NCBI RefSeq assembly: GCF_017348835.2
Contig: NZ_CP072314.1
From: Escherichia coli
GTDB taxonomy: Bacteria > Pseudomonadota > Gammaproteobacteria > Enterobacterales > Enterobacteriaceae
DNA length: 60,072 bases
Strand: one strand, 5' to 3'
Numbering within the stretch: position 1 is the first letter of the stretch; each line of letters starts with the position of its first letter. Positions 37,901 to 40,900 of the stretch are shown one piece after another. The position numbers are program-made.

Positions 37901-40900
37901 AGAGAATTCAGTGAATGTGTATAATTATGGAGAAAAACATGCAAAACTTATAAAAAAAATCCCCGCAGAAACGCTTCCTCATGGCATCTGGGCTGATACC
38001 AAGGGTAGAAAAGTTTACTTTGTTAATGAACTTAGTGATACTCTTCAGGTTATTGATGCTTATTCGGATAGGATTATAGCAAAATCATCTGTTGGTGCAT
38101 TGCCTCAGGCTCTTGTTTATGCAGAAAATGCAACAGATAATCTTGATGAAATGATTAAAAATATATCCCATACTCCTGAGTTTAGAGAACCTAAAAATAA
38201 ATAAGAAATAGCGGTGATAATGTCATTTTTCAGTGTTATATATGACATGCTTTATATTCAAAGCCACTCATATATTGCCTGTAGTGATAGTACTTACGTA
38301 GCACACCGTCTGCGCTTCTTTTGTCCAGGAGGTCAATTAATCAATTGTTCAACAAACAAGACGAAAAGCGAGCGTTAAGACTATCGTTTAAATAAATGAT
38401 ATCAACAGACAAGAGAATACAGGAAACAGCCTGGGTATTACAAAAATGTAATCAATGTGTAAGGTTTATGCTCCTCAGAATACATATAATCTTTTTTAAT
38501 TTTGTTAACTGTAAATGACGAATTATCGAGTTATGCACATGGTGAAAACACATAAATTTATCTGGACATAATATCTATTGACTTTAGTGGTTTATATTTT
38601 ATTTTACAAAAATCATCACATTCAATAAAAGGAGTTTCTTATGAGGAACACAGTAGCTGGTTTTTTAATATTTCTGTCTTCTGCTGCTTATGCAGATATC
38701 AATCTGTATGGACCAGGTGGTCCACATACAGCCTTGCTCGATGCAGCCAGGCTTTACGCCGAAAAAACCGGTGTTACAGTGAAGGTTAATTACGGTCCAC
38801 AACATAAATGGAATGAGAATGCCAAAAAGAATGCAGATATTCTGTTTGGTGCATCAGAACAATCTGCTCTTGCTATCACTCGGGACCATAAGGACAGATT
38901 TAATGAAAAGGATATTCAGCCTCTTTATCTGCGAAAAAGTATTTTACTGGTAAAGAAAGGTAACCCTAAAAATATCCAGAGTATTGACGACCTGACCAGA
39001 CCAGGGATTGGTATCATCGTTAATGATGGTGGTGGTACCAGTAATACATCAGGTACAGGCGTCTGGGAAGATATTGCCGGACGTAAGGGAAATATAGAAA
39101 CGGTCGCAGCAATCCGGAAAAATATTATTTTGTATGCGCCCAATAGCGGAACTGCACGTAAGGCACTTGAGAATCAGCCGGAAGCAGATGTCTGGATCAC
39201 ATGGGCTGACTGGGCGGCCAGTAATCCAGGAATTGGTGATGTTGTAGAAATAGCACCAGACTACGTGATATGGCGTGATATGAATATTACCGTACGTCAG
39301 GATGCAAATGATGAAACACGGCTATTTGCAGAATGGCTACAAACCGACGAAGCAGCGCCTGCATTCAAAAAATATGGCTGGACCAGGAAAGGAAGCTGAC
39401 ATCTTTCAGGACGTGGAGCCTTTTTTCTGGATGCCGCATCAGCGGCATGTAAGGCGGCACTCAGTTGTTTCATATGGCACATAGCCGAACCGCCAAAGCC
39501 CGGCGTAAGCCGGTACGGTCGTCCGAATATCACCAGTCCCCCTCCGGCCCTGCGAGGCCATGTGGCCTGTCGGCGATGAAAATGCCTCTGTGCGCGGTCG
39601 GAGTGGTCCCGACAAGGGTTACCCGCAGTCGGGGCGTATCTCCGCGTTAGCGGGCCGTGAGGGCCGCTTACGAGCGTGTATGAGAGACGTACATTGGTTT
39701 CTTCTCGCTTTTATTTCCTCTCAGGTCCTGAATTGTCAACCACTGAATCGCGGGGGCCCCTTTGGGGTTCCGATTCAGTGGTTGACAATTGCATATAAAA
39801 TACCCTGTGTGTGGGGTGATGGTTCACGCAGTGGGCCATCGCCCTGCCAGACCAATGGGGGCTTAAAGCGATGATAATGCTTAGTTACAACATTCATAAT
39901 TAAAAGCGACTCTGTTCCGGCCCGAAGGGCCGGGGCGGGGCCGCTTTTCAGTTATGAGGGAGGGGCTTTGTGGTTTCAGTTCTGCGCTGGATCGGGGGTT
40001 TTCCGGTGGTTGTATTTGAGTGTTGTAACTAAAATGACTCCGGTCGGGGCCCGCCGCTTGCGGTGGGAGGTGCATATCTGTCTGTCCACAGGACAGGCAG
40101 TGAATAGGTTTTCTTTTTAAATGAATGTAATTAAGTAGTTTAAAGGAGATATAAACAGGTGTTTAAAAGATACATTGCACCCTGTAAAACCGGCGGCTGG
40201 CGCTTTATGACATGAACGGTTGTAACCTTATAGTGAGGTCCGTTGCAGTTAAATGTGGATAAGCAAAATTCCCCGTCGCTGAGGCGTATTTTGTATTAAA
40301 AACAGGGGGAACCGGATGCACCAGAAGGTGGATGGTGAGGTGGTTTTTTGTATGTGGTGCTGCTTTTTTGTGCACTGACGGACTTCAGGCGTGCGAATGC
40401 CTCCGGCGCGTGCCGGATTATTCTGAGGAGGTTACGTTCAGGGGGAAGCTGTGGCCAGCCGGCTGTAATTACGGTTACGTGACAGAATCATGCGCTCCTT
40501 CACACGACGCTCCACTTCGCGTTTTACCGCCTCACCATTAGCAGTGAAGCGCCCTTCCGAGATTTCACGCGTCAGCTGCCGTTTCACCAGGGTGACGATA
40601 TCCTGACGTTCCCTGTTCGCATCACGACGCGCACGGGCACGTTTTATTCCACGGGACTTAAGCTCTGTCTGGTAACTGCGGAAACGCTCACGCACAAAAC
40701 GCCAGGCTTTCGCTATCAGTTCATCCATACCCAGGGTATCCAGCCCCTGCTTTTTGCGCTGTCTGTTTTCCCATTCAACACGACTGCGGCGCGCAGCTGC
40801 CACTGCATCCTCAGACACATCAAGGGCAGCAAACAGAGCCGGTGTGAACGTGATGTCGGTCGGAATGTAGCACCCGATAAGCGGGTCATATTCCGTCTGG

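What the first reader, a model, noticed from the sequence alone, without database searches (positions are those of the whole stretch)
39731..39790. Unusually strong perfect hairpin between the low-GC islet and the RepFIIA replicon
The 20-bp perfect arms with a GGGGCCCC-containing loop are more than a typical terminator. It might be a recombination or resolution site, or a replication terminus-like element at the islet boundary.
Basis: seen in the sequence. Interest (0 to 1): 0.25.

Follow-up and report, generated by a model that had tools for sequence, protein, structure and literature searches.

The report
Phage-type single-strand replication origin hairpin
The perfect hairpin is the large stem-loop of a ~125-base element homologous to the complementary-strand origin of M13/IKe filamentous phages, sitting just downstream of this IncFII plasmid's origin, where it most likely starts DNA synthesis on single-stranded DNA; it is not a terminator, terminus or recombination site.

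Summary
In detail: arms 39731-39750 and 39771-39790 are 20 nt, 100% complementary, with a 20-nt spacer. The hairpin is one half of a conserved two-hairpin module (about 39725-39856, + strand). A covariance model built from 20 plasmid, prophage and metagenome copies scores the window at 130 bits. It scores the M13, f1 and IKe minus-strand origins at 98-103 bits, although these were not used to build it. The IKe GenBank record annotates both stem-loops as "minus-strand origin". Pairing is supported by covariation, and conserved G·T pairs make the fold specific to the + strand. The family occurs in inoviruses, rolling-circle plasmids, relaxase-bearing mobilizable elements and about 1,160 PLSDB plasmids. 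In the window it lies on the leading-strand template about 230 bp past oriR, next to a pair of Ter sites; this strand is also the one expected to be transferred in conjugation. R100 lacks it. Salmonella IncFII plasmids have it in place of the R100-type region. Best reading: a single-strand priming signal. Whether RNA polymerase (as in Ff phages) or DnaG primase makes the primer is unresolved, because the start region differs from Ff. It is a new member of a known kind, of moderate interest.

The parts
39731..39790 (+). Hairpin 1, the finding itself. It is the large stem-loop, equivalent to the first minus-strand-origin stem-loop of IKe (hairpin [B] in Ff nomenclature, from memory). The outer stem pairs 39731-39750 with 39771-39790. 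There is an asymmetric internal loop, and an inner stem CCCC 39757-39760 with GGGG 39764-39767 around loop TTT 39761-39763.
39791..39813 (+). A-rich spacer between the two hairpins. Its sequence varies across the family (37-54% identity to phage and rolling-circle members).
39814..39844 (+). Hairpin 2, equivalent to the second minus-strand-origin stem-loop of IKe (Ff hairpin [C], from memory). The arms are GGGTGATGG 39814-39822 and CCATCGCCC 39836-39844; the loop is TTCACGCAGTGGG. With the CTG it is 94% identical to M13.
39841..39854 (+). Block GCCCTGCCAGACCA, containing CTG (39844-39846) at the base of hairpin 2. It is identical to a 14-mer in R100 whose T lies 364 bp past the end of oriR. 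In Salmonella members the equivalent stretch resembles the phage G4 primer-start region. It is either the candidate primase start (T 39845) or the end of an RNA-polymerase-made primer.
39855..39880 (+). 3' flank AATGGGGGCTTAAAGCGATGATAATG, specific to the IncFII subfamily. It replaces the T-rich stretch that templates the start of the Ff primer. The position equivalent to the Ff primer start is about 39863-39865, inferred from the alignment plus remembered M13 coordinates.
39725..39856 (+). The whole module as matched by the covariance model: 130.3 bits on the + strand, against 42 bits on the - strand, where only the palindrome matches.
39880..39901 (-). Context: Tus/Ter-like site 2 (core GTTGTAACTA at 39882-39891), about 35 bp from the module.
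40013..40035 (+). Context: Tus/Ter-like site 1 (core 40022-40031), inverted relative to site 2.
40075..40262 (-). Context: IncFII oriR, taken as 188 bp from the DnaA box TTATCCACA at 40254-40262. The extent is taken from remembered R1 literature and placed by alignment to R100. It lies downstream of repA1 (41307..40438, - strand).
39431..39685 (+). Context: R100-type post-oriR block (83% identical to R100) with a variant 14-mer GCCCTGCGAGGCCA at 39547-39560. It is probably the counterpart of the classical R1/R100 G-site region, so the window may carry two priming signals in tandem.

Best explanation
The hairpin is the large stem-loop of a two-hairpin single-strand origin (ssi/sso), window 39725-39856, read on the + strand. 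The module is homologous to the minus-strand (complementary-strand) origin of the filamentous phages M13/f1/fd and IKe. It would act only when the + strand is single-stranded. The two hairpins fold, stay free of SSB and recruit a host enzyme. That enzyme makes one short RNA primer just 3' of hairpin 2, reading towards it, and DNA polymerase III extends the primer. By homology the enzyme is RNA polymerase sigma-70 holoenzyme, as in Ff phages. Here the module sits on the leading-strand template about 230 bp past oriR, immediately beyond the Ter pair. It therefore most likely supplies the leading-strand primer once RepA/DnaA/DnaB have opened oriR, which is the job done by the G-site in R1/R100. 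The same strand is the one expected to be transferred in conjugation, so the module could also start complementary-strand synthesis in a recipient. Shown here: the homology, the strand-specific conserved fold, and the position and orientation. Inferred: that it primes in this plasmid, which enzyme does so, and where the primer starts.
For: Homology to phage origins: blastn of a family member against phage genomes hits IKe at 84% (6328-6445) and fd/f1/M13 at about 80% (5625-5748), plus Erwinia PEar inoviruses. The IKe record X02139.1 annotates 'minus-strand origin stem loop structure' at 6333-6385 and 6410-6438, exactly under the match. Covariance model R1 was built without these phages and scores M13 at 102.9, f1 at 102.6, IKe at 97.9 and the window at 130.3 bits. 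The window is 94% identical to M13 over hairpin 2 + CTG and 70% over hairpin 1. Structure: among 26 members, 95% of cells are paired, 11 pairs and 58 cells change on both sides, 0/500 shuffles reach this, and slid controls give <=9 cells (20-member version). The inner stem changes length and sequence but keeps pairing. Strand specificity: many conserved G.T pairs; the + strand is more stable in 19/20 members by a mean 4.9 kcal/mol; the model gives 130 bits on + against 42 on -. Context: members lie in inoviruses (Zot + G2P), Rep_1 rolling-circle plasmids, relaxase-bearing elements and IncFII replicons. In phages and rolling-circle plasmids the folding strand has the same sense as the genes, which is the strand that exists as ssDNA. 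In IncFII members (window, L001, L003, L028, L045) the module is always 650-720 bp beyond the repA stop on the opposite strand. Replacement: Salmonella IncFII plasmids have oriR and Ter but lack the R100-type block, so the module is their only candidate priming site there. Literature: RNA polymerase makes the primer on the M13 (+) strand (PMC11765958); the M13 origin is called a 'promoter-like DNA template' (PMC7948647); ssi/sso elements convert ssDNA to dsDNA using host enzymes only (PMC5714925). An 'ssi' palindrome in pIGRK is dispensable, but deleting it raises copy number and causes multimerization (PMC6854812); I could not confirm that this ssi is the same element. tra genes lie on the - strand, so the + strand is the expected transferred strand.
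Against: No experiment bears on this plasmid. The 3' flank that templates the start of the Ff primer is not conserved in the IncFII subfamily (9% identity to M13; no T-run), so RNA-polymerase priming cannot simply be transferred by homology. R100 and most IncFII plasmids replicate without the module, and the window still keeps an R100-type block at 39431-39685, so the module may be redundant here. In L004 the module, together with the R100-type block, lies next to a toxin-antitoxin pair with no repA nearby, which shows it can persist away from oriR. The direction of IncFII replication, the identity of the transferred strand, and the Ff primer coordinates come from established knowledge or memory, not from tests made here.
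Confidence: 0.72

Rival explanations
1. The element and its role are the same, but the primer is made by DnaG primase alone, as at the R1/R100 G-site and the phage G4 origin. Synthesis would start opposite the T of CTG (39845) at the base of hairpin 2 and read into the hairpin. On this view the IncFII subfamily is a chimera of Ff-type hairpins with a G4/G-site-type start block.
For: G4's annotated primer (3970-3997) is templated by a hairpin followed by CTACTG, the same layout as hairpin 2 + CCCTG. The 22 nt that begin at G4's CTG match Salmonella IncFII members (score 32 against 15.3 +/- 2.1 for shuffles, 0/500). The window's 14-mer GCCCTGCCAGACCA is identical to one in R100 whose T lies 364 bp past oriR, close to where, from memory, the R1 leading-strand start was mapped. 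The Ff-type T-run start region is missing in IncFII members. 5'-CTG-3' is the preferred primase template motif (PMC3167613).
Against: The C of the CTG belongs to the hairpin-2 stem, and CTG is also present in Ff, where RNA polymerase, not primase, primes. Its conservation is therefore explained without primase. The window's own 3' flank is not significantly similar to G4. The model finds no family member in R100's post-oriR region or in F's RepFIA region, both with filters off. Similarity to R100 beyond the 14-mer is at chance level. That the R100 14-mer is the G-site start is my inference, not a checked fact.
Confidence: 0.2
2. The module is a functionless passenger. On this view it is a remnant of past recombination with an inovirus or rolling-circle plasmid, carried beside the IncFII origin without contributing to this plasmid's replication or transfer.
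For: R100-type IncFII plasmids do without it. The window retains the R100-type block. The segment behaves like a ~170-bp insertion/deletion relative to R100. L004 carries it away from any repA.
Against: It keeps the full fold, with compensatory changes, within the IncFII lineage (window, L045, pSLT-like), while flanking DNA diverges to 40% or cannot be aligned. Position and orientation relative to oriR and Ter are the same in E. coli and Salmonella plasmids. It is the only candidate priming site in the Salmonella plasmids. It is present in about 1,160 plasmids.
Confidence: 0.1
3. The palindrome acts in double-stranded DNA, as a site for recombination or multimer resolution, as a protein-binding operator, or as a cruciform. 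This covers the first reader's recombination and resolution idea.
For: The window's arms are a perfect 20-bp palindrome. Deleting the 'ssi' of pIGRK causes multimerization, which superficially resembles loss of a resolution site.
Against: Across the family the stem is imperfect, with G.T pairs that would be A.C mismatches on the other strand. The asymmetric internal loop and the second hairpin are conserved only in one orientation. No shared recombinase accompanies the family. There is no dif-like site. Multimer formation is also the classic consequence of losing a single-strand origin in rolling-circle plasmids (established knowledge).
Confidence: 0.03
4. The hairpin is a transcription terminator or a Tus-type replication terminus.
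For: It is a strong stem-loop between convergent gene blocks, and genuine Ter sites are nearby.
Against: Neither strand has a T-run after the stem, and the terminator scan makes no call there. The Ter core GTTGTAACTA is absent from the hairpin. Homologues lie in phage and plasmid origin regions, not at the ends of genes.
Confidence: 0.02

Closest known systems
Minus-strand (complementary-strand) origin of Ff phages M13/f1/fd, hairpins [B] and [C]
   Same: Both have the two-hairpin architecture and homologous sequence: M13 scores 103 bits with a model built without it, and identity is 94% over hairpin 2 + CTG and 70% over hairpin 1. Both act on the strand that exists as ssDNA.
   Different: The host replicon here is a theta-type IncFII plasmid, not an inovirus, and there is no adjacent plus-strand origin or gene II. 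The 3' flank that templates the start of the Ff primer is replaced. The outer stem here is perfect, whereas in Ff it carries mismatches.
Minus-strand origin of phage IKe (GenBank X02139.1 features 6333-6385 and 6410-6438)
   Same: It is the closest annotated relative (73% identity over the module). Both of its stem-loops are annotated as minus-strand origin and align with hairpins 1 and 2.
   Different: IKe reads CTTG rather than CTG after hairpin 2, followed by a T-run. Its context is a phage intergenic region.
G-site of IncFII plasmids R1/R100 (the DnaG-dependent leading-strand start downstream of oriR; literature recalled from memory: Masai & Arai 1989, Bernander et al. 1992, Tanaka et al. 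1994)
   Same: Both occupy the same functional position, on the leading-strand template a few hundred bp past oriR and beyond the Ter sites. They share an identical 14-mer, GCCCTGCCAGACCA.
   Different: Beyond the 14-mer there is no detectable homology. R100 lacks both hairpins. The distance from oriR is about 230 bp here and 364 bp in R100.
Phage G4 origin of complementary-strand synthesis
   Same: Both have a hairpin followed by CTG. The Salmonella members share 20 of 22 nt with G4 starting at its CTG.
   Different: The hairpins themselves show no similarity, and the window's own flank is not significantly similar to G4.
ssi of small enterobacterial plasmids (pIGRK/pHW126 family) and sso of rolling-circle plasmids
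   Same: The same module lies upstream of rep in Rep_1 rolling-circle plasmids and in a RepL/relaxase plasmid. The pIGRK ssi is described as a palindrome and is dispensable, but its loss causes multimers.
   Different: I could not obtain the pIGRK or pHW126 sequences, so identity with their ssi is unconfirmed. Those plasmids use it for lagging-strand conversion of a displaced circle, not downstream of a theta origin.
Single-stranded DNA promoters (Frpo/ssp) of the F leading region
   Same: Both are stem-loops on the transferred strand that recruit RNA polymerase. Their transcripts can prime complementary-strand synthesis, and stable stem-loops can also stall it (preprint 10.64898/2026.01.09.698686).
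   Different: The Frpo/ssp elements are much longer hairpins that carry -35/-10 elements and drive genes. The model finds no match in the part of F that I examined (40-56 kb).

Membership tests
Ff/IKe-type inovirus minus-strand origin | Two adjacent stem-loops on one strand: a large one with an internal loop and an inner GC stem, and a 9-10 bp stem with a ~13-nt loop | tested here: met
   Consensus fold and covariation; the window matches the full model at 130 bits.
Ff/IKe-type inovirus minus-strand origin | Sequence and structure homology to the experimentally defined origins of M13/f1/IKe | tested here: met
   blastn at 80-84% between a family member and the phages. The IKe features lie under the match. 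A model built without them scores them at 98-103 bits.
Ff/IKe-type inovirus minus-strand origin | The folding strand is the strand that occurs single-stranded in the element's life cycle | tested here: met
   The folding strand has the same sense as the genes in inoviruses and Rep_1 plasmids. In the window it is the strand opposite repA1, which is the leading-strand template for unidirectional IncFII replication, and it is antisense to the tra genes. The replication direction and the transferred-strand rule come from established knowledge.
Ff/IKe-type inovirus minus-strand origin | Conserved primer-template region 3' of hairpin [C] (T-run, GGTTTTTCGCCCT in M13) | tested here: not met
   The window and other IncFII members read CCAATGGGGGCTTAAAG instead, with 9% identity to M13 in this flank.
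Ff/IKe-type inovirus minus-strand origin | Rifampicin-sensitive synthesis of a ~20-nt primer by RNA polymerase sigma-70 holoenzyme on SSB-coated ssDNA | not testable with these tools
   This needs in vitro priming or an M13 rescue assay.
R1/R100 G-site (DnaG-only priming site) | Location on the leading-strand template a few hundred bp downstream of oriR | tested here: met
   The DnaA box is at 40254-40262, the oriR end is near 40075, and the CTG T is at 39845, giving about 230 bp.
R1/R100 G-site (DnaG-only priming site) | Homology to the R100 G-site region | tested here: not met
   Only the 14-mer is shared. There is no model hit in R100 with filters off, and alignment scores are at the level of shuffles.
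R1/R100 G-site (DnaG-only priming site) | Primer made by primase alone, starting at CTG | not testable with these tools
   CTG is present at 39844-39846, but its use cannot be tested here.
Phage G4-type complementary-strand origin | A hairpin immediately followed by the CTG start, and sequence similarity around the start | tested here: inconclusive
   The layout is shared. The similarity is significant for Salmonella members (0/500 shuffles) but not for the window (106/500).
Tus/Ter replication terminus | Ter core GTTGTAACTA with conserved flanks | tested here: not met
   The only two cores in the window are at 39882-39891 and 40022-40031, outside the hairpin.
Intrinsic transcription terminator | A GC-rich stem followed by a T-run | tested here: not met
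   Neither strand has a T-run, and the scan makes no call at the hairpin.
Site-specific recombination or multimer-resolution site | Recombinase-binding arms in duplex DNA, usually with a cognate or Xer recombinase | tested here: not met
   No dif-like site with up to 3 mismatches. No recombinase is shared across the contexts. The fold is strand-specific. cer-type sites were not scanned with a dedicated model.
Any Rfam RNA family | A match to a curated covariance model | tested here: not met
   In 36000-44000 only CopA, sok and sub-threshold chance hits appear, and nothing lies at the hairpin.

The most novel reading that the evidence does not exclude
A portable 'minus-origin cassette' from filamentous phages has been captured by a lineage of IncFII theta plasmids, including this plasmid and the Salmonella virulence-plasmid type. 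It sits at the very place where R1/R100 carry their primase G-site, and its start region has been remodelled towards a G4/G-site-like block. If so, leading-strand initiation at oriR in these plasmids would depend on a phage-type single-strand origin, possibly primed by RNA polymerase, or by DnaG acting on Ff-type hairpins. The same cassette would serve vegetative replication, rolling-circle conversion, phage infection and post-conjugative strand synthesis in different mobile elements.
Probability: 0.35. Interest if true: 0.55.

Novelty: new member of a known kind. Interest (0 to 1): 0.42.

Why it matters
This gives a concrete, testable function to a conspicuous non-coding feature found in more than a thousand enterobacterial plasmids, including Salmonella virulence plasmids. 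It shows that one ~125-nt single-strand origin is shared by inoviruses, rolling-circle plasmids, mobilizable elements and IncFII replicons, which means priming signals are exchanged as modules. It suggests that IncFII plasmids differ in how the leading strand is primed: an R100-type G-site in some, a phage-type origin in others. That difference could affect rifampicin sensitivity of replication, copy-number behaviour and establishment after transfer. On the practical side, the covariance model built here could annotate these origins, which current pipelines leave blank.

Tried and rejected
I demoted it after the phage search. The model finds nothing in R100's post-oriR region or in F's RepFIA/ssiA region. 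The similarity I had seen by eye between the module and R100's G-site 5' region is at chance level. Only the 14-mer start block is shared.

2. Rfam has no family at the site.

3. The terminator and promoter scans make no call at the hairpin.

4. The first, short pattern scan of viral contigs gave 13 chance hits and 1 real one. I used a longer pattern for the genome scan, where 5 of 26 hits were chance matches.

5. I could not fetch plasmid R1 (KY749247) or pIGRK (AY543071). I also could not fetch the classic G-site papers, and full-text searches for 'G-site' or 'G4-type' found nothing. Statements about the R1 G-site position, Ff hairpin names, M13 primer coordinates and Ter polarity therefore rest on memory and are marked as such.

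6. A dif-like Xer site is absent.

7. Orientation cannot separate a role in vegetative leading-strand priming from a role in the recipient after transfer. In IncF plasmids repA and tra share a strand, so both roles use the same strand.
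Full report
OBSERVATION. The inverted repeat is exactly as described: arms 39731-39750 and 39771-39790, 20 nt, 100% complementary, 20 nt apart. 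The spacer is itself structured, with CCCC-TTT-GGGG forming a small inner stem. As single-stranded DNA the region folds far better than shuffled sequence (-29.2 against -13.4 +/- 2.4 kcal/mol, z = -6.5). It is the second-longest perfect short-range inverted repeat in the window. The scan calls no terminator or promoter there.

SETTING. The IncFII replicon lies on the minus strand: copB at 41852..41595, CopA RNA at 41380-41468 (Rfam, 98 bits), and repA1 at 41307..40438. I aligned the DNA beyond repA1 with R100, a typical IncFII plasmid and a pSLT-like Salmonella plasmid. Reading away from repA1, the order of features is:
- the DnaA box at 40254-40262 and the AT-rich oriR;
- a Ter-like site with core 40022-40031 on the + strand;
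- a GC hairpin at 39902-39948;
- a second, inverted Ter-like site with core 39882-39891 on the - strand (these are the only two such cores in the 60 kb);
- a ~170-bp segment that R100 lacks and that contains the hairpin;
- a GC-rich block shared with R100 (39431-39685, 83% identity).

The low-GC islet ends near 39,400. The hairpin therefore lies inside the replicon's non-coding region, not at the islet boundary.

THE HAIRPIN IS PART OF A LARGER CONSERVED MODULE. The 100 bp around the hairpin match 1,162 PLSDB plasmids, including Salmonella virulence-type plasmids and ~2.1-kb plasmids. Comparison with a 2.1-kb plasmid showed four shared features: compensatory changes in the arms, a conserved internal loop and inner stem, a second conserved hairpin (window 39814-39844), and a CTG at its base. 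A pattern scan of species-representative genomes recovered members from Citrobacter, Salmonella, Brenneria, Erwinia, Enterobacter, Kosakonia, Klebsiella, Sodalis, Escherichia and Aeromonas. In a 20-sequence alignment, 96% of cells pair and 10 pairs change on both sides; 0/500 shuffles reach the observed covariation, and slid controls collapse. With 26 sequences, including phages and members not used for the model, the figures are 95% paired, 11 pairs and 58 cells changed on both sides, and 0/500 shuffles. Many conserved pairs are G.T, which would be A.C on the complement. Consistent with this, the + strand is more stable in 19 of 20 members (mean 4.9 kcal/mol), and the covariance model scores the window at 130 bits on + against 42 bits on -. 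In all other members the outer stem has a small central mismatch or wobble. The perfect 20-bp stem is peculiar to this plasmid and one close relative.

IDENTITY. Searching phage genomes with a family member hit 45 records: Erwinia PEar inoviruses (86%), IKe (84%, 6328-6445) and fd/f1/M13 (about 80%, 5625-5748). The IKe GenBank record annotates two 'minus-strand origin stem loop structure' features, 6333-6385 and 6410-6438, exactly under the match. The model, built without these phages, scores M13 at 102.9, f1 at 102.6 and IKe at 97.9 bits. In a direct alignment the window is 94% identical to M13 over hairpin 2 + CTG and 70% over hairpin 1. The finding's hairpin therefore corresponds to the first, large stem-loop of the filamentous-phage minus-strand origin. 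In Ff nomenclature, from memory, this is hairpin [B], and hairpin 2 is [C].

CONTEXT SUPPORTS A SINGLE-STRAND FUNCTION. Pfam scans of neighbouring genes place family members in four kinds of element:
- inoviruses and prophages (Zot plus the G2P replication protein);
- Rep_1 rolling-circle plasmids;
- relaxase-bearing mobilizable elements (one with an integrase) and a RepL/relaxase plasmid;
- IncFII replicons.

All of these pass through a single-stranded stage. In phages and rolling-circle plasmids the folding strand has the same sense as the genes, which is the strand packaged or displaced. In the relaxase elements it is antisense to the relaxase gene. In all five IncFII members it lies 650-720 bp beyond the repA stop on the opposite strand. 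Given the unidirectional replication of IncFII plasmids (established knowledge), that strand is the leading-strand template. The window also carries traJ and finO (NCBIfam matches) and ORFs that I read from their translations as traM, traY, traA and traL, all on the minus strand. By the F paradigm, the + strand is therefore also the transferred strand.

MECHANISM. For Ff phages, the host RNA polymerase makes a short primer on the incoming (+) strand and polymerase III extends it (PMC11765958). The M13 origin is described as a promoter-like template for RNA polymerase (PMC7948647). From memory (Higashitani et al. 1993-97; Zenkin et al. 2006), the primer starts about 20 nt 3' of hairpin [C] and runs to its base. 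By homology, I propose the following for the window. Once oriR is opened and unwinding reaches the module, the + strand folds and a host enzyme makes one primer just 3' of hairpin 2. The leading strand then starts about 230 bp past oriR, next to Ter site 2.

Two observations support a real role here. Salmonella IncFII plasmids have oriR and Ter but lack the R100-type block, which leaves the module as their only candidate start site. The module also keeps its fold within the IncFII lineage while the flanks diverge.

The priming enzyme is unresolved, because the IncFII subfamily has replaced the T-rich Ff start region. In its place is a block, GCCCTGCCAGACCA followed by GGGGGCTTAAAG, that links to primase-dependent sites in three ways. 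It is identical over 14 nt to a motif in R100 whose T lies 364 bp past oriR. In Salmonella members it matches the 22 nt that begin at phage G4's CTG primer start (0/500 shuffles). CTG is also the preferred primase template motif (PMC3167613). Against a primase reading, CTG is also present in Ff, and its C is part of the stem. I put RNA-polymerase priming ahead of DnaG priming, but not by much.

WHAT IT IS NOT. It is not the R100 G-site or F ssiA: there is no model hit with filters off, and similarity is at chance beyond the 14-mer. It is not a Ter site or an intrinsic terminator. It is not a known RNA family or a dif-like site. A duplex-DNA recombination site would not need strand-specific G.T pairing or a one-orientation second hairpin. 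The multimerization seen when the pIGRK 'ssi' is deleted (PMC6854812) is what loss of a single-strand origin is expected to cause in a rolling-circle plasmid.

NOVELTY AND VERDICT. The kind of element is well known: the Ff/IKe minus-strand origin and plasmid ssi/sso signals. What may be new is the setting. The module lies between the Ter pair and the R100-type block of an IncFII theta replicon, its start region is remodelled, and the same module is spread across phages, rolling-circle plasmids, mobilizable elements and about 1,160 plasmids. An older description, for example as one of the 'two ssi signals' I recall being reported for an R1 derivative, cannot be excluded. I class it as a new member of a known kind, of moderate interest.

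Noticed in passing
window 39880-39901 (-) and 40013-40035 (+): An inverted pair of Tus/Ter-like sites lies between oriR and the module. Their cores are the only two GTTGTAACTA in the 60 kb, and by eye both keep G6 and T9 of TerB. From remembered Ter polarity they would form a fork trap that ends a round of replication just before the priming module, but I did not test polarity.
   Followed up: partly
window 39431-39685, with motif at 39547-39560: An R100-type post-oriR block (83% identical to R100) is retained next to the phage-type module. It carries a variant (GCCCTGCGAGGCCA) of the 14-mer that the module has in exact R100 form. The plasmid may therefore carry two priming signals in tandem. 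The same tandem arrangement occurs in L004, away from any repA.
   Followed up: partly
L050 687-728 (plasmid F 40686-40727): A 42-nt piece of the R100-type GC-rich block also occurs in F, outside RepFIA. This suggests that the block is itself a recurrent non-coding module.
   Followed up: no
window 53996-54050: A 27-nt perfect palindrome with a 1-nt spacer (ATGATAATATAAGTAAAGCCCCGAAAA / complement) lies on the leading-region side of the presumed oriT. It is the longest perfect hairpin in the window.
   Followed up: no
window 53013-53056: An 18-nt perfect inverted repeat (AAAGCGGTGTCGGCGCGG / complement) lies between the traM-like ORF and the SLT-type transglycosylase gene, in the expected oriT region.
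   Followed up: no
window 44384-53751: The transfer region is truncated. The traM-, traY-, traA- and traL-like ORFs and traJ (all on the - strand) are followed by IS3/IS2-family transposases (49185-50072, 47688-48593), and finO is kept (45001..44384). The plasmid is probably mobilizable but not self-transmissible.
   Followed up: partly
window 37140-39399: The low-GC islet (GC 0.30-0.40) encodes a YncE-like beta-propeller protein (37140-38204) and an SBP_bac_11 periplasmic solute-binding protein (38641-39399). The same genes flank the module in plasmid pPE164.
   Followed up: partly
window 13866-13915 and 55450-55499: Two copies of the same 21-nt imperfect inverted repeat each overlap the start of a 310-aa ORF (13908-14840 and 55492-56424), so this is a repeated element present twice in the window.
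   Followed up: no
L033 835-964 and 6816-6945 (Candidatus Erwinia dacicola contig): Two copies of the module lie on the same strand about 6 kb apart (73 and 98 bits). They may mark a tandem or bounded inovirus-like prophage.
   Followed up: no
L035, L047, L032, L039, L042, L029, L043: Small contigs carrying the module appear in assemblies of unrelated taxa (Streptococcus, Streptantibioticus, Marinobacter, Rhodosalinus, Kineobactrum, Brevibacterium, Vogesella). Over the ~155-nt module region compared, L035 and L047 are identical to the E. coli 2.1-kb plasmid L002, and L032, L039 and L042 are identical to one another. This probably reflects contamination with small enterobacterial plasmids.
   Followed up: no
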